The position numbers and the translations under genes were made by a program. A stretch of 54,114 bases of DNA from a virus (Duplodnaviria > Caudoviricetes): IMG/VR virus record IMGVR_UViG_3300025012_000112, positions 1-54,114 of that record; one strand, written 5' to 3'. The notes below the pieces were generated by a model. The model searched no databases, had not been told where the DNA came from, and worked only from the letters and a program-made list of their open reading frames with translations. Positions 5,494 through 33,213 of the stretch are shown here, piece by piece. Within the stretch, counting starts at the first letter, position 1; every line of letters begins with the position of its first letter.

Positions 5494-8400
5494 CTAAGCG
5501 TTTGGCAGCGCCAGTGATACCACTGTGCGGATTTTGCGGAGTTCCAGCCAGACGTTGAGCGTGAGCTCTATGCGAAGTTCGCCGATAATCGCCATTTGCC
5601 TGGTTGAGATGATGGTAAACGCGTAATCGCTGAGCGCGCCGACATTTACCATCGTCCGTAGTACTTCGTCAACTGCCGTGTTCAGCGCAAGGCGCTGAGG
5701 GATGGAGTTCGGCTGACCTAGGAACGGGCCGGCCACCCTGCGGATTGCCGCCATTGCGGAATGCACGACACGGACTGTTGACAGGCGTGTGTAGTCGGAC
5801 TTGACTCCGGGACGGCTGGGAAGATCGCCGGCCGCGGTGATGCCGTCCGTCACATAGACAACGCCTCCATAACTGTACAGCGTCACGTAGCGCATGCCGG
5901 TGAGGGCGTCGAGCTGCGCATTGCTGTAGTTGTAGCCCACCGCGCCCAGGTTAAGCATCGGCTTGTGAGTCGGTGCCGCTTCCGGGCTGAGGGTGGATAT
6001 CCGTCCCGCGTACATGGCTTCGGTGGTGACCGCGCGGCCGGTTGACTGGGACACAACTTCGGGTCCGCAACAAACCGACAGGTATCGGCCCACATCTTCC
6101 ATCCGCCCGTCGAGCGGGTTGGATGTCTTGAAGCCTGCGTACATTGGGGTCACGCCATCACCGATGGTCTTGGTGAGATTGAGCACGCGAGACTGGATGC
6201 CGCGGAGGGAAATATCCGTGGCGGGAGCAACTGAGACGATACCCAGCCGCTCATTGCCATTCAGCGAACACTGGTAACAGTGCTCGGCAAGCACCTGGCC
6301 AAAGTTGGTGATCGTGTTGTTGCCGTTCACGTCATTGGCGTCCGCTGTTTTTGGAGTTCCGTCCGGGTTAACGATAACGATGCCGCGTTCCTTGTTGTAC
6401 CAGAGTTTGCCGTAGCGATCCCCGAAGTACTTTGTGCGGGACTTGGCATCGAGGTACATGTCAAGCAAGGCAATGATATCCACCGGGGTATTCTCGATGA
6501 GCTGCAGAAGCCCTGTGTCGTACTGGGTTCCCAGCAACCTGGTGAGGTAGTACCCGGGGTCTTTGCCCACGCCGTCGTCTCCTCCGCGGAGGTAGGCCGG
6601 CGCATGCGTGCCGGTGGGATCCAGAAGCCTGTGCTCCCTCTCGTACTGTGCGACACCGATGGCTACAGGGTGCTCGAAGTCGGCCACGAACTGCGCCTGC
6701 ATCACGTTGTTCTCGCGATTGGTATTCAGGCCGACAACGACGGACTTGTACGTGATCGATGTTTGGGACGAGGGGTTGGTCAGGATGGTGCCTGTCGGAA
6801 CGTCGAACTTGTCGGGGGACCCTTTGCCCAAAGGCTTTTGGACCCTGATTGTCTTTTGTTCCGGGACCAGGATGCCACTGTTGTCAACGACGAGGGACAC
6901 GCCAACGATCTGGTTTGTTGGCAGCGAAGCGACCCAGGTGTCATTGCCGTAGCGGGCTCCGGGATACACCGCGCGGATGTACACGGCGACGTCGGTGTAG
7001 TACCAGTATTCGCCGGCAGCCAGTACGCTTCCCGTGGCCACGGTGAACACCGCGTCTTCGTGTTCCGGCAGGAAGACGGATCCCACGACGGGTTTGCCAC
7101 CCGGTGAATTCCGTTTGATGAGGATGGCCTCCGTGCCACTGTCCACGGCCTTGATGTACGGCACGCGGATGGCTTCGCCCGCGGCCAGGTCCGTGTCGAT
7201 GATGATGGAGCGGCCGAAGGAACCGATGCCCTTGCCGGATGCGAAGGGGTACGTGTAAATGCCGGCGGGAATATCGGCATCGACTTCCGTCTCCTCGATG
7301 CGAACCTTGGCGAGGGCTGTGTTCCCGTCGACGACACTGACGTTGACGGTGCCACCCCCGATGCGAGAGATCGTGATTGCCGAGGAACTGATGTACGGCA
7401 TGTACCATTCCCCCGCCGGTCTGGCAAAGAGTTCCGCGAGCGCAATGGCATCAGCGTATGTGCTGCCGCCAATACTGCCGTCCTCGTAGAGAGTGGCACT
7501 TACCTTCGTCTCGGTCTGGTTCAGGAAGGGAGTAATGCCTGCGGCAATGTAGATATCCCCGCCGTGCGTGACCAGGCCTGTGATGGGGTCGGGAATCGCT
7601 TCGTACACGAATCCGCCATCTTCCGGGGCAACGACAACATCCACGTCAGCCAGCATGCCAGTGACGTCGTCGTACATGGTGGCGCCGACCTCGACATCGA
7701 AGTTGCCCGATGTCGCGACGCCATCAAAGAAGTCGGACAGGTAGAACTTGTTGTCCGCGGCACTGTAGCTGAATGTGTGGACTTCTCCGGTCGTCGGCGG
7801 GGTCACAACGCGGGTGAACTGTACGAATGCTCCGCCCAGGTTGTAATCATCCGACTTGATCCGAAGCGCCACGTTGCCGAATTCCGACCCCGGGGTAATA
7901 CCCCCGATGTCCTTGTTGCCGGTATTCGTGTTGCTCCACGGAACCCGGTCCAGTCCATCGCTGTACATCATGTTGGTGGCAGTGAGACCAACGTAGTGGC
8001 CGGAACCGCCCGCCGAATACGGGTGTACCCACAGCGGCGCTCCCATGTCTGTGGGGGCGTACCCCAAAATGGCGTTGGGAGAAGAGCCCCCTGCAAAGTT
8101 GGTGACACAGTCCAACGTATTACCGGCGGCCCCTTCCATGCCACCAGCCACGCGTGGAGAGACGGTCATGTACCCGGCTCCCGGCCCTGAATCAGCGTCC
8201 CAGACTGAGGTCGCGGAATTGAGAAACACGCTTAGCGAATCCAGAACTTCGGCCACGGTCGCGCCGGGTGCCCACGCCCAGTGAGCGTAAGATTCTTGTG
8301 ATCCGCTGTGTCCTCCGACGATTGGGAGTGACTGGGGGCCAAACCCGTCGGTCCACGAAACGGTCAAAATTGGCCGGTTGGTCTCAAACGTCAGGGGGTT

Positions 8401-21409: not shown

Positions 21410-21960
21410 GATCCCTCTCCTTGGCCTGGCAGATGCGCCCTTATATCATAATGAATAACGAAGACGTCTCCGTTCTCGATCAGACCCGCGGGCACGATCT
21501 CTATGCCCGCCACATCTACCGGGTCCGACGCAGGTACCACGACTTCGTTCCATTCTGATGTTCGTACGAGTTCCCGGCCCCGGAATACCACCCGGAGACT
21601 TCCATATATACGGCGCCCCACATAGTCCGGGACTTCCGGAAAGAGTATCTGTTCGAAGGCCAGGTTTTGTCCGCTGGGATCCGCCGTGGTGTATCCCGCG
21701 GAATATTCGACGCGGATGTGCAGCACTCCGCCGGATTGAAGAGCCAGCAACGTGTACTCGATCGCAATTATGGAACAAAAGATGTCGTGGGAATATTTGG
21801 AGAACGCTTTGAGATTATATCCATCGTCGAAGACGGGCCACTTGTCGAGAGCCCCCGGAAACGCCGTTTCGCCCGCGCGCGCAAGGTTCTCGGGCTTGGT
21901 CGGCTGCAGTTCCGCAAAAGCCTGGATTGTGTCCTGTGTCTTCGGTATCAGCTCGGCCAT
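21406..21960 (-). CDS. Hypothetical virion protein
   Basis: SD AGGAG; embedded in the operon. Confidence 0.55.
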   Translation of the reverse strand: MAELIPKTQDTIQAFAELQPTKPENLARAGETAFPGALDKWPVFDDGYNLKAFSKYSHDIFCSIIAIEYTLLALQSGGVLHIRVEYSAGYTTADPSGQNLAFEQILFPEVPDYVGRRIYGSLRVVFRGRELVRTSEWNEVVVPASDPVDVAGIEIVPAGLIENGDVFVIHYDIRAHLPGQGEGS

Positions 21961-21969
21961 GGCAATCTC

Positions 21970-22545
21970 CTAATCGATGACGCGGATTCGTCGTTCCTTC
22001 CTGAGCAGGCTTTCAAATGCGGCAACGTTGATGCTCTCTACCTGGCAGAAACACTGATAGAAAACCAGGATGCCTTGCTCTTCTCGTTCATCGGTGACAG
22101 CTTCGATACTCAATATCTCTATGATGCTGACCGGGACCATCGTCACCTTATTCCATTCCACTCGAACTATCAGGTCCCCTGGTTTTGGATGCGCCACTGG
22201 TTTCAGGAACACGTTCGTGCTTGGCGTGGACAACATCCCTGGATCGACCCTCTCGTAGGACCTTGTGAGCTTGCCGGGAGAGGCCTGCGACCAGTGCCGG
22301 CCCAAGTGTCTCTCAATAATAATCGGATTGCCGGTGCCGTAACACGTTGGGCAAAAACCCAGTCCTCGGGATTGCTGGCGGATAGCCTGCAAACACCGGT
22401 GCGCCTGCGCCCGATCCCGGCGGATATACAGCACGTGGTCCGCGATTTCGTCCATGGTCTGCTCGAACTCCGCCACTAGCTCGGGCGTGGAGACCTTGCG
22501 GATGTCTACCCGCAATCGTGTTTTGCTGTCCAGCCGGGTCACCAT
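21970..22545 (-). CDS. Neck/head-closure protein
   Basis: CPTCYGTG zinc knuckle and PKPGDLIVRVEW; follows the adaptor gene. Confidence 0.6.
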   Translation of the reverse strand: MVTRLDSKTRLRVDIRKVSTPELVAEFEQTMDEIADHVLYIRRDRAQAHRCLQAIRQQSRGLGFCPTCYGTGNPIIIERHLGRHWSQASPGKLTRSYERVDPGMLSTPSTNVFLKPVAHPKPGDLIVRVEWNKVTMVPVSIIEILSIEAVTDEREEQGILVFYQCFCQVESINVAAFESLLRKERRIRVID

Positions 22546-23183
22546 CTGTCCCAGTTCCTCCTGTTGCGTACTCCTGGAGGCATGTTTGCCAGAGCGCGCT
22601 GGTGTGCCATTTCAGCAAGAGGACTGGCCCCTCGAATCACAATCCGCGCCGATGCTTTTGTCTTCTGTACGCCAGTGAGCGCATAGTAGCACGCATTCAT
22701 CTCGGGAATGATGTGCGCTTGTAAGGCCGTTTGTAAATCGGCCACGCTACCGCGATGAACAATCTTGAAGTCTCCGAGGACCTTCTCTCCGGAGCCGGAA
22801 GACCCCAGGTTGGGGAATTGTCCCACAATCATGAGGTACTGTGAGCGCCAGCGCACGTAGCATTCGATCGCGGCAATCATGTTCGGGTCAGCTCCGGACG
22901 CCAGTAATTCGTCCAGGGATTGCGTCACGTCGGGCTGTGTCCACAAATTCCCACGACCGATGCCGCGCCAGGCATCCAAGGACGCCTGGTACATGTAAAT
23001 GGGAACGGTCTCGGAAGGCAAAGTAGTCACCAGCGTCCGCATGTCCAGCCCCACTATTTCGGGGTTTCCCCAAAGCGGCATCAACGGCGCAAAATAATAC
23101 ACGACTTCCGTCGGCATGATTTCGCCATCAACGCTTTGGATACGCCGAATAGTCAGTGTGTACTTACACGATTGGCTGAACAC
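22539..23183 (-). CDS. Head-tail adaptor-like protein beginning with an orphan Ig-domain fragment
   Basis: SD GGAGG, 9 nt, then GTG at 23183 (MFSQSCKYTLTI...). Helical body with SGEKVLGDFKI motif typical of adaptors. Confidence 0.6.
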   Translation of the reverse strand: MFSQSCKYTLTIRRIQSVDGEIMPTEVVYYFAPLMPLWGNPEIVGLDMRTLVTTLPSETVPIYMYQASLDAWRGIGRGNLWTQPDVTQSLDELLASGADPNMIAAIECYVRWRSQYLMIVGQFPNLGSSGSGEKVLGDFKIVHRGSVADLQTALQAHIIPEMNACYYALTGVQKTKASARIVIRGASPLAEMAHQRALANMPPGVRNRRNWDRW

Positions 23184-23559
23184 TCGTGAATTCCTCCACT
23201 GATGGGATTTGCCCGTCATTGGTGAACGCGAATTTGTGCAGGATGTGCTTGTCCAGGTACACAGTGCCGAAGACCGTCCCGGTCCAGTGCGAACCCTTGG
23301 GGTCGGCGTCCAGGAAAATGCGTCCTGTGTTGTAGCAGAACAAACGAGCGCGACCCCATTCTGTCCGGGCGCGAACAGTGGTCCTCGTCTTTTCAAACAG
23401 GACCACCAGGTTGGCTACGTCGTCCGACAGCATCCTGTACGTTTTGCCATCAATTAGCCACTGTTCGCCCGTGTAGAACAAGCGCCACTGTTCTTCGGTC
23501 ATCTCTGACCTTTTGAACTGCTGGCCCCCGTGGGTCGTAATGATGAAGTCTGGTCTCAT
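23164..23559 (-). CDS. Hypothetical protein
   Basis: 131 aa; fills the gap between operon genes with tight spacing. Confidence 0.55.
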   Translation of the reverse strand: MRPDFIITTHGGQQFKRSEMTEEQWRLFYTGEQWLIDGKTYRMLSDDVANLVVLFEKTRTTVRARTEWGRARLFCYNTGRIFLDADPKGSHWTGTVFGTVYLDKHILHKFAFTNDGQIPSVEEFTSVQPIV

Positions 23560-23562
23560 TGT

Positions 23563-24465
23563 TTATTCCACCGCGTAAGTGTATTCGAGAGCGAGCGCCC
23601 AGATGTGGGTGCGCGCTGTCGCATCAAACGGGACGGCAATCTGCAATTGAATCTCCGCGGCGCCGCCACTGCAGGACGTGGCCGGGTTCGCGGCCACATC
23701 ATCGCAACCGATGCGACTGTAGGTCCGGGATCCGATTGGGAACGCGCCAACACCTTGTGGCGGCGGCACGCTAATCAAGCGCCACACGTTGTCCGCGTCG
23801 GGCAGTGGCGGGTTGGCCGGCGGGTCCAGGGGGTCGTTGGGGACTAACCCTCCCGGTACGCGCCCGGGCGCCTCGCCAAGGCAATAAGGGCCGGGCAGCA
23901 CCTTGTTGAGCTGCGGGTCCCATGTGCCGCCGCCGGAATCGTACACGTGGTAGGCGATTTGCGCGGCCGACAACCAGAACCTGTGTTGCGTCCCCACCAC
24001 GTTCGTGATGGGCTCGGAAGCCTGCGTTGGCGGAGACCCGTAGGGTTCGTCGTACGTCTTGAGTTCGCAGTTCTCCGCGGAAGCAACCGACGGTGGGACC
24101 GCGCCCGCGGGGACCACTTCCAGATTGTTGAATATCCCGATGTTGACCAGGGACGACAGATTCTTCTGGATGATCTCGCGTTTAGTGGGCGAGGTGTCCG
24201 AGTAGAACCCGACCCCGGAATCGACCGGCCCTAGTGGTGCCGCCAGAAACGGCGGAATGGCCCAGTGGTCTTCTTCACCAGGGACTCCGCCGGCGCCCGC
24301 ATCAACCTGGCCGACCCAGTTGCCGCTTTGAGGGCCGCCGGGCGGGTAGGAGATGTTCCACGCCGGTGTCCCGAGTAACGTGGTGTAATCCGTCGCGGCG
24401 CTCACTCCCGCGGCCAGGCCGACCGCGAGTTTGAAGAATTTGATGGTTGGTTCAAGTACGGCCAT
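23563..24465 (-). CDS. Hypothetical virion protein (Pro/Gly-rich beta protein)
   Basis: SD GAGGC; 300 aa. Confidence 0.55.
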   Translation of the reverse strand: MAVLEPTIKFFKLAVGLAAGVSAATDYTTLLGTPAWNISYPPGGPQSGNWVGQVDAGAGGVPGEEDHWAIPPFLAAPLGPVDSGVGFYSDTSPTKREIIQKNLSSLVNIGIFNNLEVVPAGAVPPSVASAENCELKTYDEPYGSPPTQASEPITNVVGTQHRFWLSAAQIAYHVYDSGGGTWDPQLNKVLPGPYCLGEAPGRVPGGLVPNDPLDPPANPPLPDADNVWRLISVPPPQGVGAFPIGSRTYSRIGCDDVAANPATSCSGGAAEIQLQIAVPFDATARTHIWALALEYTYAVE

Positions 24466-24479
24466 GATGATGCCTCCTC

Positions 24480-26012
24480 TTAACTGTTAGAATCTCCATG
24501 CAACTGCTGCTGCCATTGAACGTTAACAAGCAACCTGATTGCATTCTCGCGCTTCTTGATTATGAAGTCGTCCGATTCTTCTGTCATTACCCACAGGAAT
24601 ATACCGCGCCGCGCCGCGATCGCGGGCCTGCCCCAGAGCCACCCTTGCCCCGCGGCCGCGACTCTTACCGTGACCCACACAAACAAACTCCGGATTCCTA
24701 CTACCGTGGCCCACAGCCATGGCATGTGAACTCCGGATGCGGCGGCGCGCGCCCAGACAAAAAGGTCACGGGTGCGTCCGGCGGAGACGCGGCCCCATAC
24801 CCAGCCGGCCCACCCACCGTCCCCGACAACCTTGGTCCAGACCCATGTGCTTTGCACCGCACTTAAAGCGGCCCTTACCCACAACCACGTTTGATGGTCG
24901 CCCTGTTTGGATATGCGACCCCATAACCAGGAACCCCATCGCACGAATGCCACGACTTTGGACCAGACCCAGGCCCCTGCTGGTTTGGGAATGAGGAACT
25001 CAATCTCGTTGCTCTGTGAGAAAGTCCCGTTGGTGTCGTCCACCACCAGCACTTTAATAAAGCAACTGCGTCCAATTGGAATCCCGGGGACGGTAAAAGA
25101 GAGCGGCCCCGGCGGTGTGGAATACGGAGGAACGGGAACGGTTCCTACCAGGGTCCCCGGCACTGGTATGAAATCTTCCGTTGTCCCCATGTGGATCTCA
25201 TAACGATTATACGGAGGCTCTCCCAAAATCCCTTTCGTTGGGCTCAGGGACAGCGCCGGGTCGGCCGGTTTGTAGACTTTCACGTGGTCAACTCGAACCG
25301 TGGAGTCCGCCCCGGTGTTCGACAGCCGAAGGTGGCATTCGCCCGCGGTGCGGGGCGGGGCATCGCACGACGGCGTGGGGTTGGTGCCTCCAGCGAAGGT
25401 TATCGTATTCATAAGGAAGGGTATCCACTCCGCCCCTATCTCGTCGTAAATGGTGACGTAACCGAAGCAGGTAAACCCTGGCTCTATAGTGAAACGGAAC
25501 TTGCATATCCTGTTCTGAATGTCCGGGTATTGCGGCCACTGATTCTGGTCATATACGAGAACCCACTTCTTTGCATTCTCGGACCAGATGTAGAGGTTGT
25601 CCTGCATAAACTTCACACGGAACTCATTGTTCCCGGAAGACACCATGACATCGAATTGTCCGGCAGCGCTCATGTCCCGAAGGTCAACCGTGAACTCGAC
25701 GGCATAACGCCCGTTGCTGACCCCCGGCGCAAAGTATGCGGGGGTGCCAATGTCGACGCTCTGATAGCCAACACAGTCCAATTCCAGAACCTTGTCATTC
25801 TGGGTCCATGGCTCCGCCAGCGCGACGACTTGAGCTGTTCCCGTACTCCCGCCGGAAAGCGACCATCCCGCGGGAAGACCCAGCACATCGAACAACTCGA
25901 AGGCGTAGTCCCCGGTGGTAAGATACGGTATCCAGTGCACATCCGCTTGCGCCAGCACGGGGTTAACCGCGAAAGGACCAGAGGCGACTGTGTACTCGTG
26001 CTTGAATGCCAT
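24480..26012 (-). CDS. Virion protein: lectin-like and FN3-like domains plus Trp-ladder repeat
   Basis: Beta-rich N-terminus, YEIHMGTTEDF...FSQSNEI FN3-like segment, and ten [WF][VL]W repeats. Confidence 0.6.
   Translation of the reverse strand: MAFKHEYTVASGPFAVNPVLAQADVHWIPYLTTGDYAFELFDVLGLPAGWSLSGGSTGTAQVVALAEPWTQNDKVLELDCVGYQSVDIGTPAYFAPGVSNGRYAVEFTVDLRDMSAAGQFDVMVSSGNNEFRVKFMQDNLYIWSENAKKWVLVYDQNQWPQYPDIQNRICKFRFTIEPGFTCFGYVTIYDEIGAEWIPFLMNTITFAGGTNPTPSCDAPPRTAGECHLRLSNTGADSTVRVDHVKVYKPADPALSLSPTKGILGEPPYNRYEIHMGTTEDFIPVPGTLVGTVPVPPYSTPPGPLSFTVPGIPIGRSCFIKVLVVDDTNGTFSQSNEIEFLIPKPAGAWVWSKVVAFVRWGSWLWGRISKQGDHQTWLWVRAALSAVQSTWVWTKVVGDGGWAGWVWGRVSAGRTRDLFVWARAAASGVHMPWLWATVVGIRSLFVWVTVRVAAAGQGWLWGRPAIAARRGIFLWVMTEESDDFIIKKRENAIRLLVNVQWQQQLHGDSNS
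24591..24971 (-). repeat. Ten-copy 14-residue [WF]-[VL]-W protein repeat
   Basis: WVWSK, WLWGR, WLWVR, WVWTK, WVWGR, FVWAR, WLWAT, FVWVT, WLWGR, FLWVM at 14-aa spacing (one interval is 12). Confidence 0.85.
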
Positions 26013-26470
26013 TAGAGTACCTGCTGCCCCACGGAATAGTCATAGTATCCAAAGAGCTCAACACGGCAAATACCGACGCGCGGCCCCGGTCCTCCCATGC
26101 CCCCGGCCCCGTTGTCAAACATGAACCGGACCTGCGTATCCTTGAAGCAGGGGATACAGATTGCCTTGGGAAGCGAGACGGGAATTCCCGCCAGAGCCGC
26201 GCCGTAGATTGTCTGAGCGTGCCAGTTCGCCGGTGCTCCCGATACGTTCAGATTGGTCTCCAATTTCCAGAAGTAGTCGAATGAGGAGACTACCAGTATC
26301 TGCACGAGATTAAACTGCTCCGGCAGGAAGTTGCCCGGACCTGGAAACAGGACGCCATTTGCCAGCTCCAGATTCCCCACCGGAGGATCGGTGGCAAATA
26401 TGATGGAATCGTTGCCATCTCTGATGACACTTCGTAATTGTGTCCGGCGATTAACGTTGTTGCCGCTCAT
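26012..26470 (-). CDS. Hypothetical virion protein
   Basis: SD AAGGAGGT; 152 aa; beta-rich. Confidence 0.55.
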   Translation of the reverse strand: MSGNNVNRRTQLRSVIRDGNDSIIFATDPPVGNLELANGVLFPGPGNFLPEQFNLVQILVVSSFDYFWKLETNLNVSGAPANWHAQTIYGAALAGIPVSLPKAICIPCFKDTQVRFMFDNGAGGMGGPGPRVGICRVELFGYYDYSVGQQVL

Positions 26471-26481
26471 GGCGGACCTCC

Positions 26482-26976
26482 TTAGTACTTCTCGTCGTAT
26501 ACGACCTGGATGACGCTCTCGTCACTGAGCACCTCGTCCCAGTCGTTGATGGTGATCGTCGTCTGGACACCGAGCTGGTGGCCCACTGTGTAATCATGGG
26601 AAGCCCCTTCGGCTCTGAGGATACCGTCAATGTACAGCAGTTCATTCCTCGTAAACGTTGGGGTGGGCAGATATACCTTTCCCATCTGTCCACGAATCAG
26701 CGCGCCGTCAAAAAGGAGACGCGACGTGGTTGCGTATGCGTTGTGAAGTGTTACGTTATCCGTGTGCTCTTGTACCGTGTCGCTGAACGGATCCGCGGTA
26801 CCCGGATTCAACTTGGTTCGCAGGATGTCTTGAGCCCGGACGTCGTGGATGTTCTGTCCAAGGCCCACCGCCGTCATATGCACAAGCATCGCGTTGTAAT
26901 CGAGCCACCAGCGCTCTTCCACGCCGTCCCACATCTTCAAGAATTGGTGCCTGGGCGTCAGTTCGGATATCCTCAT
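26482..26976 (-). CDS. Hypothetical virion protein
   Basis: SD GGAGG; LLYIDGILRAEG..DYTV small beta domain seen in fibre proteins. Confidence 0.55.
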   Translation of the reverse strand: MRISELTPRHQFLKMWDGVEERWWLDYNAMLVHMTAVGLGQNIHDVRAQDILRTKLNPGTADPFSDTVQEHTDNVTLHNAYATTSRLLFDGALIRGQMGKVYLPTPTFTRNELLYIDGILRAEGASHDYTVGHQLGVQTTITINDWDEVLSDESVIQVVYDEKY

Positions 26977-28715
26977 GATAGCCTCCCGAGCAGGACGCCG
27001 TATGAATACACGGCCGTGTTATTTGATACTTCAATCAGCAATTGGATACTTTGTCCCGTGAAGTCCAGCAGGAAGTCGTTGTCGAATTGCGTGTCGTTGA
27101 TGGCAGGATTATTCATACCGTCAGCAATAACGGTCACCGTGACCGCGGAAGGGTCCTCCGCCTCCACGTGGACGTTGACGTATTCCACGGTGTACATCGT
27201 GGCCGTGTACACATATTCCTTGGATAGGCACGTTCCCGCGCCCCGTAAGGCATGGTCCGCAATCGTGGCGCCCCCGCCCAGCAAGTCGGTTCCGCTTGCG
27301 TCTTCGAAAACGTCAACGATCATTCCTCGGGTCCACATGGACCCGACGAACCAGTTCCTGTACCACTCCAGCTCTTCAAAGGTCCGGAGGGTCTCCCCGG
27401 CGAATGATGATGTCGGAGATAACGCCGGCGGATTTGCGCCGTTAAGGTTCCAGGGCTCTCCTGACACAGTGGCCATGACCGCCCGGATATTGTTCAGGCT
27501 CTCGTTCAGGTCCGTGGGCGCGGCATTCCACGTCGACCCCACGACCAGAGGACCAACCCATGCCGGGTCTATCGACGCGGCGGGGAAAGCCAGTCCACCG
27601 CTGACGGTAAGCATGGTTGTGACATCCAGGCTCTCGATAGCAGCGGATGCGGCCGCCAGACTGGTAGCCTCCAGAATCCCGGCCATCAAAGTATCAAACG
27701 TCCCCGCTTCCAGCGCGGTGACTCCTCCAAGGACGGCTCCGCCGCCGCCCCATGCCAGTAACGTCGGGATCAGATCGGCGATGTTTAACTTGGTTGGGAG
27801 AACGAGGTCTATCCCGGTTTGCCAGGCCAACAAATCGGCAACGTCGCTCCCTATCCCGGCCACCGTGCCCTGCAAGCTAAACATATCCGTCTGCAGAGTC
27901 CCGATGTCGAGGGTATGTTGGGCGACGTCGGCGTGGCCCACAGGGTCTCCCATGTGTCCGGAAAGCACCGAAGCCTCGGCCGCTCCGAGGGCCGCTAGTT
28001 CGAGCAGGCTCAGCCCATGGGCCGCCGTGGCCGAGGCTTCCGCATGCGTCGTGGTCATGCCCAGCATTTCCGTGATCGCGTCGTGCAGGCTCGTTGCAAC
28101 CAGCCCTGCTTGTGCCACCGCCACACTGGCATCGTCGAGTGTCCCCGTATGTGAATCTAAATCGTGTTCTTTCGGATGGTGGTCGTCCTCTCCTATATCC
28201 ACAATATTTGGATGACTGATTTGTTTGCCGGCCGTGCCGTCGTGCGCATGCCCGCCTGTGATGTCCCACGTTACTTGCGCTTCCGCCAACGGCCCGGTAT
28301 GGTCTGACCCTCCCAGGCCGTGCACTTGCGTATGGTGGTCGTCCGCGGTCATGTCCAGAAGACTTGGGTGTGATACCTGTTGTCCGCTTGCGCCGCCCGC
28401 ATGGGCATGGCCACCATCCCCGAACGCAACCTGTATCTCTCCGAAGGCAAACATGTCTGGCAAATATATTTGTGTGAACTGAATTGTCCCGTTCAGGATG
28501 CCGGTGATCTGGTCCTGCAGATCCTCGTCAATCAAAGACATCGCATTGAAGCGGCCGTCGAGAGCCGTTGGGTCGGCAATGTCGGACACGGCCGCGGTCA
28601 GCAGGGCGAGGATTTGCTGCCACTGCGTCTCTCGCAAAGCATCCGCGAAACCGACTTGGCGCTCATATAGAGACGACCCGGTGGACTTCTGGATGTTGGT
28701 TGTCTGTTCCGGCAT
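26973..28715 (-). CDS. His-rich trimeric fibre/whisker-like protein
   Basis: Repeated GHAH/DDHH/SHTG motifs, coiled-coil stretches and a C-terminal beta domain. Confidence 0.6.
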   Translation of the reverse strand: MPEQTTNIQKSTGSSLYERQVGFADALRETQWQQILALLTAAVSDIADPTALDGRFNAMSLIDEDLQDQITGILNGTIQFTQIYLPDMFAFGEIQVAFGDGGHAHAGGASGQQVSHPSLLDMTADDHHTQVHGLGGSDHTGPLAEAQVTWDITGGHAHDGTAGKQISHPNIVDIGEDDHHPKEHDLDSHTGTLDDASVAVAQAGLVATSLHDAITEMLGMTTTHAEASATAAHGLSLLELAALGAAEASVLSGHMGDPVGHADVAQHTLDIGTLQTDMFSLQGTVAGIGSDVADLLAWQTGIDLVLPTKLNIADLIPTLLAWGGGGAVLGGVTALEAGTFDTLMAGILEATSLAAASAAIESLDVTTMLTVSGGLAFPAASIDPAWVGPLVVGSTWNAAPTDLNESLNNIRAVMATVSGEPWNLNGANPPALSPTSSFAGETLRTFEELEWYRNWFVGSMWTRGMIVDVFEDASGTDLLGGGATIADHALRGAGTCLSKEYVYTATMYTVEYVNVHVEAEDPSAVTVTVIADGMNNPAINDTQFDNDFLLDFTGQSIQLLIEVSNNTAVYSYGVLLGRLS

Positions 28716-28724
28716 CGTATGCTC

Positions 28725-29207
28725 CTATACGATCGGTTGATTCGATTGCAGTGCGGAATATCCAAGGCCAATGGCGGCTCCAACGGCCGCACCCACGCCA
28801 AGGCCACGCCATGCGCTGCTCCCCATGGACCGAATCGAGGCCCCTGCTTCGTGGGAGAATGCTCGTCCCATATATTTTGCCGTACGCCCAAGACCGGCAC
28901 TAAAAGCTCCGATTTCTTCGATGGGCATGTTGTTCAACCACAAATTGCGGGCCGCTGGACGTATCGCGGCATCATAGAATTGACCGCCGAGGCCAAGCGC
29001 TGCCTTACTCCCGGCGCCGATGGCCCGGCGCCCTGGACCCGAAAGGGCCGCGCCCGCGAGCCCACCCATCAGGACGTCATGGCGCGTGTCGGGCTCGGCC
29101 CGTGCAAACATGAACGCCCCGGCGCCAATGCCAAGCCACGGCAATACCCCGGCCGCTCGTGCGGTGGTGGAAGCCATGCCTGCTGCTGCTTCTCCTGGGA
29201 TCGGCAT
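28725..29207 (-). CDS. Glycine-zipper protein (possible internal/ejection protein)
   Basis: GGLAGAALSG and WRGLGVGAAVGAAIGLG; SD AAGGAG. Confidence 0.55.
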   Translation of the reverse strand: MPIPGEAAAGMASTTARAAGVLPWLGIGAGAFMFARAEPDTRHDVLMGGLAGAALSGPGRRAIGAGSKAALGLGGQFYDAAIRPAARNLWLNNMPIEEIGAFSAGLGRTAKYMGRAFSHEAGASIRSMGSSAWRGLGVGAAVGAAIGLGYSALQSNQPIV

Positions 29208-29220
29208 TTATCTCATCTCC

Positions 29221-29997
29221 TTAATACATCGCGGTATTCGAATACATTCGGTCCGCGGGCTGGGTGACTGCCCCGTGCAGGCCAACGACAAGCCCAATGG
29301 CGCCCATGACGCCGGCGCCGATGGCCCCGCGGTGCAGGGCCACCCGCCCCCACTTGCCCAGGTTTTCTGATTTGGCCATCCATTTCCATGACTCTTTGCG
29401 AAGCATCGAGCTTTCCAGAGCGGGCACTTCGTGCGGGACTTTCAGTCTCGCGTGTTCCGCACTCTGCCACGACCGCGGTCCTTCAAAAGCCTGTCCCGTC
29501 CTGGCGTCAACGTGTTCGAGTTGGCCGTTGGCATTTAGACGTGGTTTCAGGCGCTCGCCAGCGACCTTGATAGGATTCTGATTGAGCCGGTCAAGTTCCT
29601 GGACACGAGCCGCCTCAATGTTCCCATGGGCTCCCCGCATCCTCGGCATTTCATTCCTGGCCAGGGACGCCATGGTAATTGGCGTTCCCGCCGCACCCAG
29701 TAGCGCACCGCCCCAGGCTCCTCGCCACGTGGCGCCGCCCAGTCGTTCCAATGGAGACCGGTTTGGGTCGTATGCCTTACTCGCAATTCCTCCCATGACA
29801 AGGCCGGCCCCCAGGGCGGTCCCGACAGCTGCCGCTCCAACTCCGGCGTACATCCGATTGCCGGCGAGCATCGGTGGGAGGCCGCGGCTTGCTCCTGACA
29901 CGGCGGAATACATTGAAGCCGCACCAAAGCCACCGCCGCCCAGCATGGCGAGGGTAGCTTTGCCGCGAACTCGCTCCTGTGGTGTCGATCCGTCCAT
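29221..29997 (-). CDS. Glycine-zipper protein (possible internal/ejection protein)
   Basis: GVGAAAVGTALGAG, WRGAWGGALLGAAG and HRGAIGAGVMGAIGL. Confidence 0.55.
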   Translation of the reverse strand: MDGSTPQERVRGKATLAMLGGGGFGAASMYSAVSGASRGLPPMLAGNRMYAGVGAAAVGTALGAGLVMGGIASKAYDPNRSPLERLGGATWRGAWGGALLGAAGTPITMASLARNEMPRMRGAHGNIEAARVQELDRLNQNPIKVAGERLKPRLNANGQLEHVDARTGQAFEGPRSWQSAEHARLKVPHEVPALESSMLRKESWKWMAKSENLGKWGRVALHRGAIGAGVMGAIGLVVGLHGAVTQPADRMYSNTAMY

Positions 29998-29998
29998 G

Positions 29999-31561
29999 TT
30001 ACAACAGCGCCTCGTTGAATAAGACTATGAACCATTCCATGGCCGGGGTAAGGGCTTCGTCCATGACGCGCATTTCCACTTTGACCTTCATCTTGTTTCC
30101 CTGTACGACATCCGCTATCCCCGTTTGTATCTCTTTGGCCGGGTCGTACGAGAACAATATTTCGGAGTAGGTCATGCCATCGTCGGCGGATACGTACAGG
30201 CGTAAATTGGTCTCGTCAGGCATTGTGAACCGTGCCCGGACTTCGACAGAGGCCGTTTCCCCAGCCAGTTCCAGCTCAAAGATTGTGTGCTTCCACGTGC
30301 TGGCCGGCGCATACGGAGCGCGGCGAGTGAACCGGAGTTCCCCGTGCAGCGTGTCTGTATAAAGTTCGTCTTCTCCCTCAACGCGTTCCGTCACGTCCAT
30401 GAAGTGCTTGCCAAACGCCCACCGGCGGCCACTGACATGCAGGATGTCCCGGAACAGGTTCTCGTATTGCTGGATGTCCATACCGCCGCTCCCTGTCCCC
30501 GGTGACGGGGATGGGCCTGGTGGCGTCCCGCCTTCCGGCACGATGATCAGAACGTTTGGTTCGTCCTCGTCCACGTACACGCTTTCTATTCCTATTGTAC
30601 CCGGTTCGCGCACGTTCGGATCGGACTGCAGTATCTTATTGCCGAACAAGGTCACGCAACTCAGATCAACGGTATCGGGGTTTATATTGCGATTGAACGT
30701 AACACGGAAATATTCAGGGTCAACATTCATGGAAAAGTCAGGCGGATCGATCCCGATAATCATGAAGGGTTCGTTGCCGGAAAGTACCTGGCCTACATTC
30801 TCCCAGGTTGGCCCGGTCGTCTGAGGTACGTATGGGGCTTCCTGCCCTGGCTCCAACACGTAGAACGAGTGGAGCAGTGACCACGCACTCCATTGTCCGG
30901 CCACCAATGTTCGTATGTGCCAAAAGTACTGGACCCCAGCCGGGAGTTCCTCGTCCGGGCGCCACTCAGTGTTTGGAAGTTGCGTCTCCGAATCGATGGC
31001 GGGAATAATCACCGCGGGCTGGCCAGCCGGTGGCACCAGCAATGGGTCCATGAGTTCGGAGTACCCGATCTCAATCTGGTAGGACTCGGCCGCGGTGACG
31101 GGCGCCCATCGGAAGAGCGGCCGCGTGTCGTAAATGGATGAATATTCAAACGGGAGTTCCGCGGACGGCGGCTGGATGGACACGTCTCCGGTGGAGAAGT
31201 TCCACACGAAGTTTTTGCCCATGCTGTTGCCGACAATATTCTTGACGACAGCATTGGTCCCGCCCGTGAATGGATTGGCCAGACCCACGATGGTCGCCTG
31301 GTAAGTTGTCTGTGGATCCAACGGCTGCTGTGGACGGAACCGGCCAATGAATTCGCCGGCCTGCGTGGCTTCGTAACTCACATAACCCGGAATGGGCCGC
31401 ATGCTGTTACTGGCAACGATGAAAGTCCCCGCTGTCAGTGTGTCGCGGTCGACCGCCTGGGAAAAGTATACCAGAATCTCCGAGTCGAGGGATACGTTGG
31501 ACTGGATCTCTCTTGGTGATACTCTGGTTACTCTGAGATCGTCTACAAAGCCAAAAACCAT
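29999..31561 (-). CDS. Ig-like (Big_5-type) multi-domain virion protein
   Basis: VTRVSP...ILVYFSQAVDRDTL...LDPQTTYQATI...WNFSTG is a complete Big_5-type domain. It is followed by an FN3-like unit, a truncated second Big_5, a PG linker and a C-terminal beta domain. Confidence 0.75.
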   Translation of the reverse strand: MVFGFVDDLRVTRVSPREIQSNVSLDSEILVYFSQAVDRDTLTAGTFIVASNSMRPIPGYVSYEATQAGEFIGRFRPQQPLDPQTTYQATIVGLANPFTGGTNAVVKNIVGNSMGKNFVWNFSTGDVSIQPPSAELPFEYSSIYDTRPLFRWAPVTAAESYQIEIGYSELMDPLLVPPAGQPAVIIPAIDSETQLPNTEWRPDEELPAGVQYFWHIRTLVAGQWSAWSLLHSFYVLEPGQEAPYVPQTTGPTWENVGQVLSGNEPFMIIGIDPPDFSMNVDPEYFRVTFNRNINPDTVDLSCVTLFGNKILQSDPNVREPGTIGIESVYVDEDEPNVLIIVPEGGTPPGPSPSPGTGSGGMDIQQYENLFRDILHVSGRRWAFGKHFMDVTERVEGEDELYTDTLHGELRFTRRAPYAPASTWKHTIFELELAGETASVEVRARFTMPDETNLRLYVSADDGMTYSEILFSYDPAKEIQTGIADVVQGNKMKVKVEMRVMDEALTPAMEWFIVLFNEALL

Positions 31562-31569
31562 GGCGGTTA

Positions 31570-31965
31570 TTATCCCTCGGCGAGTTTGGTATCAACGATG
31601 GTCAGTTCTTCCGGAGTGATGTGTTTGGAACAATGCTTTGAGTGCAGAAGCGCCTTGTTCTTGCAGCGTGACCCACTTTTTGTCTTTGCTTCGCAGCGTT
31701 GTTCGCTGGTGGGCCGGCCGCCCTTGGCGATGGCCTCTTCGGGGTTGTCGTTGAAGCCGTCGTTTGGTTCCTGCTCCGACGTATCCTCGGCGTCCGGCGC
31801 CGACAGGTCCATGATGTGTATCAGTCCCTGTTCGATCCCCGCCTGCAGCGTGGGCGTTATCTCTTCGACTTCCGCCTCGGGCATGTATCGGTTTAGCGTA
31901 ATCGGTGGGATACAGTCGTTTGCATGAAAGTTCAGGTTCCCGATGTCGAGCATGACTTTATACAT
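31570..31965 (-). CDS. Small protein with C-terminal CCCH zinc finger
   Basis: RCEAKTKSGSRCKNKALLHSKHCSKH; SD GGAGG; follows the MCP gene. Confidence 0.65.
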   Translation of the reverse strand: MYKVMLDIGNLNFHANDCIPPITLNRYMPEAEVEEITPTLQAGIEQGLIHIMDLSAPDAEDTSEQEPNDGFNDNPEEAIAKGGRPTSEQRCEAKTKSGSRCKNKALLHSKHCSKHITPEELTIVDTKLAEG

Positions 31966-31980
31966 GGATTCCTCCGAGAA

Positions 31981-32021
31981 GCAAGGGGCCGGGGGAGCCG
32001 AAGCTCCCCCGTGCCTTTTGC
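31981..32021 (-). terminator. Hairpin after the major capsid gene
   Basis: Minus strand CGGGGGAGC-TTCG-GCTCCCCCG (UUCG tetraloop) with extended flanking pairing. Confidence 0.7.
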
Positions 32022-32037
32022 TTGTTCTTTACAGACC

Positions 32038-33213
32038 TTACACCTGGTGCGTGAAGGTGACGGTCGGGTCGTAGCTCGGCTGAGCCGCTATGTTGCGGGC
32101 GCAGATGACGGCGCGTCCCTTGTTCAGGATGCCCCATCCCTTGCGGGCTTTGACCTTGATGTTGCGGATGTCGGCTTCGGGTTCTTTCCACTCGTCCGAG
32201 GACATTTCCTCTTTGACGAGCTCGACGCCGACTTCGTTGCGGTCCACGACATACAGGTCTCCAACTTTCTTCTGTTTGTCGAAGAACACGCGCGGTGTGA
32301 GAATGGGATCGATTGCGAACGGCAGGGCCGCTCCGATCGCACCCTCGCCCAGCGGAACGCCTTTCGGGTCCCACCGTTTCGAGACGTTGCCCAGGCCACC
32401 GAAGTAGATGGTCTTCGCGTACGAAGGCCAGTACAGCGGGTGCATGAGCACGTTTGTGGGCGTGAACTCATGGGCCATAAGTGTGGCGATCATCTCGATC
32501 CAGTCGAGAGTCGAAAGAGTGTCGTTGAGGGCAAGCGAGGTGGCGCCGGGAGCGGAGCCGGGGGCCAGGGTGGGATTGAACCCGTAGCCTGTCGGGTGCT
32601 CCATGGAACCCTCCACGGACTCGCCGTCGAAACGCACGTGCGCGTGCATGTGGAAGTTGTTCGCCCTTTTGGTCTCTTCCCAGCGGGCCATGGCTCGGCC
32701 GGCGCCGCGGGTCAGAAGCCCGATGACGTCCCACAGTGAGTCGCTGATGGCTTCGTCGGTGGCGCCGAACGCCATGCCGAACTTGCCGACTTTGATCTCC
32801 AGGCTCTTGTGGAGCCCGAAGTCCACGACCGCTTTGGGGTACGGCTGACCTTCGGCGATGTCGCCGGCGGTCATGGCGCTGACGGACGGGAACTCTATTG
32901 AGTTTCCGGCGTTCAGGCGCACAATGCTGAAGAACTGTTTGAAGATGAGCAGTGGCTCGGCGGCTTCGCGAAGTGTTCCGTAGATCACCCGCGGAAGCAG
33001 GACCGACGCATCGTCGCTCGTGAGGAACTCGCTGAGGGAGATGCGTTCGGATTCCTTGGTGCCGAGATTGAATTCGGACAGGGCATCGAGCAGCCGGTTG
33101 TCGTAGTTGACCTCAATGTTCTTCGCCTCGAGGCCGAGAACGAGCTGACCTACTTGCGAGATGCTTTTGCATTCCTTGAGCGACTCGGTCGCGCTGAAAA
33201 TCTTGGTAAGCAT
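32038..33213 (-). CDS. Major capsid protein (HK97 fold)
   Basis: 391 aa, SD GAGGAGG. LLPRVI...REAAEP, IAEGQPYP, KVGKFG...TDEAISDS and LMHPL motifs. Strong codon bias and a downstream hairpin. Confidence 0.85.
   Translation of the reverse strand: MLTKIFSATESLKECKSISQVGQLVLGLEAKNIEVNYDNRLLDALSEFNLGTKESERISLSEFLTSDDASVLLPRVIYGTLREAAEPLLIFKQFFSIVRLNAGNSIEFPSVSAMTAGDIAEGQPYPKAVVDFGLHKSLEIKVGKFGMAFGATDEAISDSLWDVIGLLTRGAGRAMARWEETKRANNFHMHAHVRFDGESVEGSMEHPTGYGFNPTLAPGSAPGATSLALNDTLSTLDWIEMIATLMAHEFTPTNVLMHPLYWPSYAKTIYFGGLGNVSKRWDPKGVPLGEGAIGAALPFAIDPILTPRVFFDKQKKVGDLYVVDRNEVGVELVKEEMSSDEWKEPEADIRNIKVKARKGWGILNKGRAVICARNIAAQPSYDPTVTFTHQV

What the first reader, a model, noticed from the sequence alone, without database searches (positions are those of the whole stretch)
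22539..31561. An Ig-like domain split across two genes 7.3 kb apart (possible trans strand complementation)
Seen in sequence: protein 29999..31561 has one complete Big_5-type domain ending LDPQTTYQATI...VKNIVGNSMGKNFVWNFST. Its second such domain stops after NVLIIVPEGG (~30527) and runs into a PGPSPSPG linker. The adaptor-like gene at 23183 has its own GGAGG-GTG start and begins with the missing piece, FSQSCKYTLTI-RRIQSVDGEIMPTEVVYYFAP. Joined, the halves read LIIVPEGG-VFSQSCKYTLTI as one continuous domain. Inference: an ancestral Ig-adaptor gene was interrupted by a block of eight genes plus a new C-terminal domain, and both halves were kept. The two proteins may re-form the fold in trans, which would clip a decoration/fibre complex onto the neck.
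Basis: partly seen in the sequence, partly recalled or inferred. Interest (0 to 1): 0.8.

Follow-up and report, generated by a model that had tools for sequence, protein, structure and literature searches.

The report
Ig-like domain split between two phage genes
In this uncultured groundwater phage, one immunoglobulin-like domain is encoded in two pieces on genes 7.3 kb apart, a related phage still has it as one gene, and the pieces may snap together to mount an arm on the neck of the virus particle.

Summary
The 520-aa protein (29999-31561, minus strand) has a complete Big_5 domain. Its second Big_5-like domain stops after strand E (residue 345, nt 30527) and runs into a Gly/Pro/Ser linker.

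The 214-aa protein (22539-23183; GTG start, GGAGG 9 nt upstream) opens with a 33-residue piece. This piece matches the missing F-G end of an independent Big_5 profile: hhalign P 6.8e-6, score 28.1, against a maximum of 14.7 in 251 control windows.

Two relatives (45-55% identical) keep both pieces. Three assemblies from one study cover the region without a joint.

An unsplit homologue exists. P0155 (504 aa) lies directly after the capsid gene of a 211-kb phage record. It reads Big_5, FN3-like, complete Big_5, then the 214-like helical domain.

Gene fission at the E-F loop is therefore well supported. Completion of the fold in trans is inferred. One complex prediction gave "weak support" (ipSAE 0.53, best control 0.02).

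The adaptor identity of the 214-aa protein rests on leads only. The history looks stepwise, not a single insertion. I rate it a new variant of known kinds (genes in pieces; donor-strand complementation).

The parts
29999..31561 (-). Gene for the 520-aa protein: Big_5, FN3-like, truncated Big_5, linker, extra beta-sandwich domain
   Evidence: ORF. Pfam Big_5 E 5.8e-17. Four full-length relatives of 510-518 aa at 37-48% identity (P0005, P0006, P0007, P0009). AF2 mean pLDDT 74.
31190..31537 (-). Complete Big_5 domain 1 (residues 9-124)
   Evidence: Pfam profile positions 5-105 of 105. Own HMM positions 1-100, 74 bits. AF2 10-residue-block mean pLDDT 67-94 across residues 11-130, highest (86-94) in its first eight blocks.
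30857..31174 (-). FN3-like middle domain (about residues 130-235)
   Evidence: Aligns to P0155 residues 99-214, E 8e-13. Weak fn3 / Ig_Rha78A_N hits in the relatives P0155, P0051 and P0097.
30527..30772 (-). Truncated Big_5 domain 2 (residues 264-345): strands A to E only, ending ..LIIVPEGG
   Evidence: Family members match the own HMM only as far as position 64 in the longest match. hhalign stops at strand E. The AF2 model has no F/G strands, and block pLDDT is 38-77.
30482..30526 (-). Variable Gly/Pro/Ser linker (residues 346-360)
   Evidence: Length and sequence vary among relatives. pLDDT is below 50 for residues 350-360. L011 has an in-frame TAA followed by ATG here.
30002..30481 (-). Extra C-terminal domain (residues 361-520): one helix plus a beta-sandwich
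   Evidence: AF2 block-mean pLDDT 60-92, 80 or more from residue 421. It exists as stand-alone proteins of 160 and 167 aa, P0024 and P0034. No tblastn match to it in the unsplit-form phage G002.
23164..29997 (-). Eight intervening genes (258, 160, 580, 164, 152, 510, 300 and 131 aa), function unknown
   Evidence: ORFs. Pfam gave no family for seven of the eight and one chance-level row (NDUF_B12, E 0.51) for the 160-aa protein; PHROGs gave none. Syntenic in L002 and L011. No tblastn match in G002 or G001.
23193..23197 (-). GGAGG ribosome-binding site, 9 nt upstream of the GTG start at 23183
   Evidence: Read directly from the sequence.
22539..23183 (-). Gene for the 214-aa adaptor-like protein
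   Evidence: ORF. Homologues P0002 (55% identity), P0003 and P0154. Homologous to P0155 residues 311-493.
23085..23183 (-). N-terminal F-G hairpin piece of Big_5 (residues 1-33)
   Evidence: hhalign P 6.8e-6 to Big_5 positions 65-97, against a control maximum of 14.7. Aligns to strands F-G of P0155's complete domain. AF2 predicts strands 6-12 and 26-32 at low pLDDT.
22542..23078 (-). Helical core (residues 36-214), probable head-to-tail adaptor domain
   Evidence: AF2 predicts helices with block-mean pLDDT 61-77 across residues 51-120 and again at 151-170, lower elsewhere. Atlas leads to Phage_connect_1, SU10, PhiTE and T4 gp13 adaptors are all below the bar.

Best explanation
An ancestral virion protein had the layout Big_5, FN3-like, Big_5, helical adaptor-like domain. 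The related phage record G002 still encodes it as one 504-aa gene directly after the capsid gene.

In the lineage of this window the gene was broken in the loop between strands E and F of the second Big_5 domain:
- The upstream piece keeps strands A-E. In this clade it also gained a flexible linker and an extra beta-sandwich domain.
- The downstream piece acquired its own ribosome-binding site and start codon. It keeps the F-G hairpin as the first 33 residues of the 214-aa protein.

Shown: both pieces exist, they are complementary to within about one residue, they are conserved in three phages, and an unsplit homologue exists.

Inferred:
- The hairpin inserts into the open sandwich of the 520-aa protein. 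This would be a two-strand version of donor-strand complementation.
- The Ig-like arm and its extra domain would then stay non-covalently mounted on the ring formed by the 214-aa protein, probably the head-to-tail adaptor at the neck.
For: 1. The two pieces match complementary parts of the profile. Domain 2 matches Big_5 HMM positions up to about 64, and the 214-aa N-terminus matches 65-97. The hhalign score is 28.1, against a maximum of 14.7 in 251 controls.

2. In-script joining test. Joined pieces give one continuous HMM match with a gain over domain 2 alone:
- window: positions 18-97, 17.7 bits against 9.6 bits alone;
- L002: positions 17-92, 13.0 bits against 7.9 bits alone.
None of 31 control N-termini and none of 943 sliding control pieces reached the real score.

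3. An unsplit homologue, P0155, exists:
- BLASTP E 4e-5 and 8e-13;
- profile E 2.7e-8;
- hhalign 98.8% for the 520-aa family and 90.5% for the 214-aa family, collinear;
- Pfam finds a complete second Big_5 domain at residues 237-340.

4. Conservation:
- The hairpin is kept in P0002 and P0154.
- Hand count on the alignment: 17 of 33 hairpin residues are identical between P0001 and P0002, against 55% for the whole protein.
- The truncated end is kept in all 8 family members that cover it.

5. This is not a misassembly:
- The same arrangement occurs in the window, in L002/L003 and in L011.
- Three Logan contigs cover 21500-32500 in one piece with no joints. They come from one study and may be the source sample.

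6. Complex prediction of domain 2 (residues 252-352) with the hairpin (residues 1-50):
- Verdict: weak support. ipSAE was 0.53/0.53/0.51; the best of 3 controls was 0.02.
- In the tool's calibration the mark was reached by 58 of 80 solved complexes and by 2 of 110 mismatched pairs. At 0.60 or under it was reached by only 7 of those 80 solved complexes and by both mismatches that passed.
- The runs agree in at least 87% of contacts, and the partner's pLDDT is at least 56.

7. In G003 (78% complete) the only Pfam-level Big_5 match lies in the 518-aa homologue. No other Big_5 protein competes as a partner there.
Against: - The unsplit form is a single record (n = 1). Further searches found no others.
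- Single-sequence HMM scores for the hairpin are near chance: 1.6-5.0 bits, and E 5.2 in the six-frame scan.
- In L011 the joined pieces did not extend the HMM match (13.0 bits against 13.1 alone), although the score still exceeded all controls (max 12.6).
- Domain 2 alone against P0155 aligns to the right place (residues 228-328) but only weakly (P 0.006, probability 6%).
- The complex prediction is rated 'weak'. By the tool's own calibration this is more often wrong than right unless the guess was likely beforehand. No contacts were returned.
- P0003 (186 aa) is called from a start after the hairpin. I could not check its DNA.
- In the more distant G001-type phages the 328-aa protein ends at the same place, but no hairpin-bearing partner or 214-like gene was found in the 85 kb available.
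- No coordinates of the AF2 model were available, so packing of the extra C-terminal domain against domain 2 in cis is not excluded.
- The adaptor identity is not established.
Confidence: 0.6

Rival explanations
1. The fission is real but the halves no longer meet. Domain 2 is a vestigial or re-stabilised five-strand module, or is completed by another protein or by the extra C-terminal domain. The hairpin now does another job, such as beta-augmentation with the portal, a ring neighbour or another neck protein.
For: - Distant relatives of 327-347 aa end at strand E, and no hairpin partner was found in the available DNA.
- The complex prediction is only 'weak support'.
- P0003 is called without the hairpin.
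- AF2 still places six strands in domain 2 on its own.
Against: - Both boundaries and both pieces are conserved at about the same level as the rest of the proteins, across 45-55% identity.
- The two pieces are exactly complementary.
- Domain 2 has lower AF2 confidence than its neighbours.
- The control partners scored 0.00-0.02.
Confidence: 0.27
2. The resemblance is chance or convergence. The N-terminus of the 214-aa protein is an unrelated beta-hairpin, and domain 2 is a different, complete small fold.
For: Single-sequence HMM scores are near noise. Pairwise Smith-Waterman scores do not exceed shuffles.
Against: - The profile-profile score lies far outside 251 controls.
- The hairpin aligns residue for residue with strands F-G of the complete domain in the homologue P0155. 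In P0155 this domain is followed by the same helical domain.
Confidence: 0.05
3. The two halves are physically rejoined, or the split is an artefact. Candidate routes are a split intein, RNA splicing, programmed DNA excision of the 7.3-kb block, or misassembly.
For: A 10-mer, TGCAGGATGT, occurs as a direct repeat only at 23237 and 30438, near both junctions. Chance expectation is 0.10 copies per window.
Against: - The 10-mer encodes ILH in two unrelated frames. Recombination there would not rebuild the domain, and the motif is absent from the L002 proteins.
- Pfam (E up to 1) and PHROGs (E up to 0.1) report no family of any kind, intein or endonuclease included, for seven of the eight block proteins or for the 214-aa protein; the 160-aa protein has one chance-level row (NDUF_B12, E 0.51), and the 520-aa protein matches Big_5 only.
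- The residue after the break is Thr, and no His-Asn precedes the C-piece.
- L011 has TAA-ATG directly before the hairpin.
- The downstream piece has its own GGAGG and GTG.
- Three assemblies and two relatives share the layout, and there are no joints.
Confidence: 0.03

Closest known systems
P0155: unsplit 504-aa homologue in IMG/VR record G002 (L009:9707-11221)
   Same: It has the same collinear layout: Big_5, FN3-like, Big_5, helical domain. It lies after the capsid gene, and both window proteins align to it.
   Different: It is one polypeptide with a complete second Big_5 domain, no 160-aa extra domain and no intervening genes. Capsid protein identity to the window is only 31%.
Donor-strand complementation in chaperone-usher pili (recalled knowledge, not tested here)
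   Same: An Ig-like fold lacks its C-terminal strand(s) and is completed by an N-terminal extension of another polypeptide.
   Different: Here two strands (an F-G hairpin) are missing, not one. The system is a phage virion with no chaperone or usher, and an unsplit ancestor-like form is at hand. Binding is only predicted.
Genes in pieces in phages: fragmented nrdA of Aeromonas phage Aeh1 (PMC3045599; search listing and start of the abstract only)
   Same: A phage gene is split into two separately translated parts, and their products assemble into a working protein.
   Different: That case is an enzyme split by a homing-endonuclease gene. Here a structural Ig-like domain is split by 7.3 kb of seven or eight genes with no recognisable endonuclease.
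Ig-like collar proteins on myophage and podophage connectors: Bas63, Sf14, GP4 (PMC12609058, passages read)
   Same: Twelve Ig-like collar proteins are mounted on the adaptor ring. In Bas63 the collar contacts the adaptor N-terminus (Cys2). The 'rope' part is fused in Bas63 and a separate protein in GP4, so fusion/fission variants occur.
   Different: Attachment there is by putative disulfide bonds and interlocking, not by a split domain. No sequence relation to the window proteins was found.
SpyTag/SpyCatcher, an engineered split CnaB2 Ig-like domain (recalled)
   Same: An Ig-like domain divided into a large part and a short strand-bearing tag that reassemble.
   Different: That system is engineered and forms an isopeptide bond. 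This split is natural, involves two strands and is presumably non-covalent.

Membership tests
Big_5 (PF13205) Ig-like domain | Match to the Pfam model above the gathering score over its full length | tested here: met
   Domain 1 of the 520-aa protein scores 62.8 bits against a cut-off of 23.6, covering profile positions 5-105 of 105.
Big_5 (PF13205) Ig-like domain, second copy | A full-length domain including strands F and G | tested here: not met
   Domain 2 matches the profile only up to about position 64 in family members. The AF2 model has no F/G strands before the linker. The missing part matches the 214-aa N-terminus.
Gene fission of a fused ancestor ('genes in pieces') | A collinear unsplit homologue exists, and the two pieces are complementary without overlap or loss | tested here: met
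   P0155. By hand count on the A6 alignment, the junction is complementary to within one residue. Only one unsplit record was found.
Donor-strand (beta-strand) complementation | The incomplete Ig fold is completed by strands of a second polypeptide | tested here: inconclusive
   The complex prediction gave 'weak support': ipSAE 0.53 against a best control of 0.02. In the calibration, 58 of 80 solved complexes and 2 of 110 mismatches reached the mark; at 0.60 or under, only 7 of those 80 and both mismatches that passed did. No contacts were given. A structure or a binding assay is needed.
Head-to-tail adaptor (Phage_connect_1 / SU10 / PhiTE / T4 gp13-like) | Sequence or fold match to a known adaptor family, and a position in the head-neck module | tested here: inconclusive
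   - No Pfam, PHROG or PDB sequence match.
- Foldseek on the poor model (pLDDT 53) found nothing.
- Atlas structure and feature leads to adaptor families are all below the bar.
- Position fits: the unsplit form directly follows the capsid gene, and the window gene precedes a 'virion structural protein' (phrog_38102, E 2.5e-18).
Split intein / protein trans-splicing | Hint-domain halves flank the break: Cys or Ser at the first intein residue, and His-Asn followed by Cys, Ser or Thr at the C-junction | tested here: not met
   Pfam reports Big_5 alone for the 520-aa protein and no family for the 131-aa or 214-aa proteins, so no intein or Hint hit. The residue after the break is Thr in a Gly/Pro linker. 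L011 has a TAA stop immediately before the hairpin's ATG. The motif criteria themselves are recalled.
Split by a mobile homing endonuclease (Aeh1 nrdA type) | An endonuclease gene lies between the halves | tested here: not met
   None of the 8 intervening proteins has an endonuclease hit: PHROGs (E up to 0.1) gave no family for any, and Pfam (E up to 1) gave none for seven and only a chance-level NDUF_B12 row (E 0.51) for the 160-aa protein.

The most novel reading that the evidence does not exclude
This is a naturally occurring two-piece Ig-like domain. The N-terminal F-G hairpin of the phage adaptor completes, in trans, the five-strand Big_5 remnant of a separately encoded arm protein. This would be a natural, non-covalent 'tag and catcher' that mounts a decoration or fibre arm on the neck. 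It arose by fission of a single gene that still exists unsplit in a relative. The pair would offer a direct experimental system for how a domain survives being cut in two.
Probability: 0.5. Interest if true: 0.75.

Novelty: new variant of a known kind. Interest (0 to 1): 0.66.

Why it matters
Gene fission inside a single small domain, not between domains, is rare. It is rarer still with both pieces kept and an unsplit relative available for comparison.

If the pieces reassemble, three things would follow:
- Phage structural modules could be re-wired by cutting a domain and using its halves as a built-in docking device.
- A new way of attaching accessory arms or collars to the neck would be documented.
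- A natural hairpin/receiver pair from a well-behaved Ig-like fold would become available, of possible use as a protein-assembly tag.

The claim is directly testable with two small recombinant fragments.

Tried and rejected
Searches that found nothing useful:
- Pairwise Smith-Waterman of the pieces against domain 1 gave scores no better than shuffles: 69, 46 and 431 of 500 shuffles reached the observed score.
- tblastn of the 214-aa protein and of P0155 against 50,697 phage records found no match.
- A search for longer (fused) forms of the 214-aa protein scored none of 1608 candidates.
- A third homologue search with residues 240-520 returned only the query itself.
- PDB sequence searches with P0155 and with profile A6 gave nothing below E 0.2.
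- Foldseek with the 214-aa model (pLDDT 53) gave no match at E <= 0.001.
- Foldseek with the 520-aa model returned only generic tandem Ig/FN3 proteins.
- Locus scans with P0155, A6 and P0051 in viral contigs, and with A6 in genome contigs, gave nothing new.

Searches limited by divergence or missing DNA:
- tblastn of window proteins against G002 and against half of G001 matched only head-module genes and the Big_5 protein. The origin of the 8-gene block stays open.
- A scan of candidate N-termini of G001 for an F-G piece found none. The partner of the distant 328-aa form is unknown.

Sequencing runs:
- No RNA holder was listed for the region, so nothing can be said on expression.

Rejected ideas:
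- Split intein, excision and misassembly are rejected; see the rival explanations.
- The direct 10-mer repeat near both junctions is judged coincidental.

- Alignment A3 was too diverse for a locus scan, so I used A4 instead.

Full report
**Setting**

The window is a whole IMG/VR virus record of 54,114 bp. CheckV rates it 24% complete, so it is a fragment of a large phage genome. Sequencing runs that hold it are groundwater metagenomes.

The structural genes run on the minus strand in this order:
- a capsid protein at 32038-33213 (Pfam Phage_capsid_4 E 4.7e-13; PHROG major head protein E 4.3e-15);
- a 131-aa gene;
- the 520-aa gene (29999-31561);
- eight genes of 258, 160, 580, 164, 152, 510, 300 and 131 aa;
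- the 214-aa gene (22539-23183);
- a 191-aa 'virion structural protein' (phrog_38102, E 2.5e-18), followed by further genes.

**Checking the observation**

The 520-aa protein:
- It has one complete Big_5 domain. Pfam gives E 5.8e-17, residues 9-124 matching profile positions 5-105 of 105, and reports two stretches.
- To locate the second stretch without circularity, I built a Big_5 HMM from 924 domains. These came from the multi-domain proteins found in the representative search, with the phage family left out.
- In the 520-aa family the second domain matches only the first part of this model, as far as position 64 in the longest match. For example, P0051 residues 281-345 of 347 match positions 5-64 (iE 8.4e-4).
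- hhalign of the domain-2 family alignment ends at strand E (probability 80%, P 1.3e-5).
- In the window protein this point is ..NVLIIVPEGG, residue 345, nt 30527.

The 214-aa gene:
- It starts at GTG 23183, with GGAGG 9 nt upstream. The start overlaps the upstream gene's end by 20 nt.
- Its first 31 residues align to HMM positions 68-97. The two relatives align in the same register, at positions 67-99 and 70-92.

Statistical weight:
- The single-sequence scores are weak (1.6-5.0 bits). In a six-frame scan of 1404 ORF pieces from the window and L002 the match has E 5.2. It is nevertheless the best match to the C-terminal third of the model.
- The profile-profile score is strong. The 3-sequence N-terminal alignment against Big_5 gives score 28.1, P 6.8e-6, with query 2-32 on template 65-97 of 97.
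- As a control I cut 251 forty-column windows from other orthologue pairs of the same two phages. They scored mean 8.1, sd 1.9, max 14.7. The real two-sequence alignment scores 24.7.

**Conservation and assembly**

- L002/L003 come from a 170-kb IMG/VR record whose capsid protein is 73% identical to the window's. It has the same gene order, with seven intervening ORFs of 100 aa or more.
- In that record a 518-aa homologue (50% identity) ends domain 2 at ..LVIIPNGG before a different linker. A 215-aa homologue (55% identity) starts with the same motif, behind its own ATG and GAGG.
- L011 is a 10-kb metagenome contig with 64% capsid identity. Its hairpin-bearing homologue P0154 sits directly behind a TAATG junction.
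- In L011 the arm protein is two genes, of 347 and 167 aa, separated by an in-frame TAA followed by ATG in the linker.
- The representative search also returned stand-alone C-terminal domains (P0024 of 160 aa, P0034 of 167 aa). It also returned arm proteins that end right after strand E (P0008 and P0051 of 347 aa, P0097 of 327 aa).
- Three Logan contigs from three samples of one study cover 21500-32500 in one piece, with 0-2 differences and no joints. They may include the source sample. Misassembly is excluded for practical purposes.

**The unsplit homologue**

A profile of the 214-aa family hit the 211-kb record G002 (98% complete) inside a 527-codon open frame, at E 2.7e-8. The gene there is L009:9707-11221, kept as P0155 (504 aa). 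It lies directly after the capsid gene.

- Pfam finds two Big_5 domains. The second, residues 237-340, covers profile positions 7-104 of 105.
- P0155 residues 99-214 align to residues 106-234 of the 520-aa protein (E 8e-13).
- P0155 residues 313-451 align to residues 5-150 of the 214-aa protein (E 4e-5). In this alignment NTRYDIYITGIKNTDGDTMAGVTKSYF lies opposite SCKYTLTIRRIQSVDGEIMPTEVVYYF.
- hhalign gives 98.8% (P 4e-17) for the 520-aa family and 90.5% (P 1.3e-6, query 3-196 on P0155 311-493) for the 214-aa family. Both alignments are collinear.
- By hand count on the A6 alignment, the break falls in the E-F loop, with nothing lost or duplicated beyond about one residue.
- When the pieces are joined inside a script, the HMM match becomes continuous. 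For the window it covers positions 18-97 at 17.7 bits, against 9.6 bits for domain 2 alone. For L002 it covers 17-92 at 13.0 bits, against 7.9.
- None of 31 control N-termini and none of 943 sliding control pieces did as well. In L011 the match did not extend, although its score of 13.0 still exceeded all controls (max 12.6).

A half-domain cannot plausibly arise on its own, so fission of a fused ancestor is the direction of change. I put this at about 0.85-0.9.

**History**

- Capsid identity to the window is 45% for the G001-type phages and 31% for G002. The G001-type 328-aa arm protein also ends at strand E.
- The simplest reading is that G002 keeps the old state. The break would predate the split between the G001-type and the window clade. 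The 160-aa domain and the present block of genes would have come later.
- This rests on similarity values, not on a rooted tree.
- None of the eight block genes is detectable in G002 or in the available half of G001. The tail genes are not detectable there either, so this says little about where the block came from.
- No endonuclease or intein family is detectable at the junctions or in the block: PHROGs gave no family for any of these proteins, and Pfam gave only Big_5 for the 520-aa protein and a chance-level NDUF_B12 row (E 0.51) for the 160-aa protein.

**Do the halves reassemble?**

This step is inferred.

For:
- The two pieces are exactly complementary.
- The hairpin is conserved at the level of the whole protein. 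Hand count on the alignment: 17 of 33 residues identical between P0001 and P0002, against 55% overall.
- The truncated end is conserved in all 8 members that cover it.
- AF2 shows domain 2 without F/G strands. Its confidence is lower (block pLDDT 38-77) than in most of domain 1 (67-94) and in the later part of the C-terminal domain (80-92 from residue 421).
- AF2 of the 214-aa protein shows an N-terminal hairpin (strands 6-12 and 26-32) at pLDDT below 50, next to a helical core.
- The complex prediction of residues 252-352 with residues 1-50 was rated 'weak support'. ipSAE was 0.53, 0.53 and 0.51; the best of 3 controls was 0.02.
- In that tool's calibration, 58 of 80 solved complexes and 2 of 110 mismatched pairs reached the mark. 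At 0.60 or under, only 7 of those 80 solved complexes did, as did both mismatches that passed.
- The three runs agree in at least 87% of contacts, and the partner's pLDDT is at least 56.
- In G003 no other Pfam-level Big_5 protein exists to compete as a partner.

Against:
- The prediction is weak and no contacts were returned.
- Completion in cis by the extra C-terminal domain is not excluded.
- P0003 is called without the hairpin.
- No partner was found for the distant forms.

I put trans completion at about 0.55-0.6.

**What the 214-aa protein is**

- Pfam, PHROGs, PDB sequence search and Foldseek on a poor model all gave nothing.
- The Atlas places both P0155 residues 340-504 and P0001 residues 36-214 next to the same cluster of viral proteins about 158 aa long. 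Sub-threshold structural leads point to the SU10, PhiTE, T4 gp13 and Phage_connect_1 adaptors.
- The gene position, directly after the capsid gene in G002, and the helical fold also fit. A head-to-tail adaptor is therefore the best guess, at about 0.65, but it is not established.

**Literature context**

- The Bas63 paper (PMC12609058, passages read) describes twelve Ig-like collar proteins mounted on the adaptor ring. They contact the adaptor N-terminus through a putative disulfide bond. The 'rope' part is fused in Bas63 and separate in GP4.
- Ig-like rings on adaptors, and fusion/fission variants of them, are therefore known.
- A full-text search for 'donor strand complementation' with 'bacteriophage' and 'Ig-like' listed 4 papers. 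By title and abstract start, none describes a phage case.
- A search on gene fission or split domains in phage structural proteins listed nothing comparable among the 10 shown of 42.
- The fragmented nrdA of phage Aeh1 (PMC3045599) and 'fractured genes' with split inteins (PMC2677866) are the nearest gene-in-pieces precedents. I saw only their listing and abstract starts.
- Paper supplements were closed and could hold further cases.

**Verdict**

- The fission inference is well supported.
- Trans completion is plausible but unproven.
- The adaptor or neck location is probable but unproven.
- I rate it a new variant of known kinds, with interest 0.66.

Noticed in passing
window 24480-26012 (-), 510-aa protein, about residues 345-475: The C-terminal part holds about eight tryptophan-rich repeats of the type W-x-W-x-x-V/R (for example WVWSKVV, WLWGRIS, WLWVRAA, WVWTKVV). 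No Pfam or PHROG family matches. It has a 38%-identical homologue in L003.
   Followed up: no
window 26973-28715 (-), 580-aa protein, about residues 95-200: Two repeats contain GGHAH followed by ..SHP...D...DDHH. From memory, these recall the His-x-His metal-binding motifs of phage fibre tips. No family hit. The block between the split halves may encode fibre-like proteins.
   Followed up: no
L011 3060-3080: The arm protein is cut in its linker by an in-frame TAA immediately followed by ATG. This gives separate 347-aa and 167-aa genes. It is a second, between-domain fission within the same gene family.
   Followed up: partly
window 23237-23246 and 30438-30447: The 10-mer TGCAGGATGT occurs only at these two places, as a direct repeat near both junctions of the split. 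Chance expectation is 0.10 copies per window. It encodes ILH in two unrelated proteins and is not conserved in L002, so it is probably coincidence.
   Followed up: partly
L004 / G001 (170,948-bp IMG/VR record), centre near position 85,474: The record is a perfect palindrome. The genes at L004 5466-6850 are mirrored at 6735-8119, and the Big_5 match appears twice in mirror image. IMG/VR labels this as inverted terminal repeats. It is likely an assembly fold-back, so the true length would be about 85 kb.
   Followed up: partly
L009 11606-14598 (G002): Two genes after the unsplit Ig-adaptor gene come proteins with G8 domains (E 1.3e-4 and 2e-8) and a weak beta-helix hit. Such fibre- or depolymerase-like genes are unusual this close to the capsid gene.
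   Followed up: no
window 28725-29997 (-), 258-aa and 160-aa proteins: Both are very rich in Gly and Ala, with glycine-zipper-like hydrophobic stretches. No Pfam or PHROG family apart from a chance-level Pfam row (NDUF_B12, E 0.51) for the 160-aa protein. No ORF of 100 aa or more is listed in L002 at the place of the 160-aa gene, between the 224-aa and 579-aa ORFs; no homology check was made.
   Followed up: no
window 31570-31965 (-), 131-aa protein between the capsid and arm genes: A weak zf-C3Hc3H hit (E 0.0015, below the cut-off) falls on a Cys/His-rich C-terminus. A possible zinc-binding small protein sits inside the head module.
   Followed up: no
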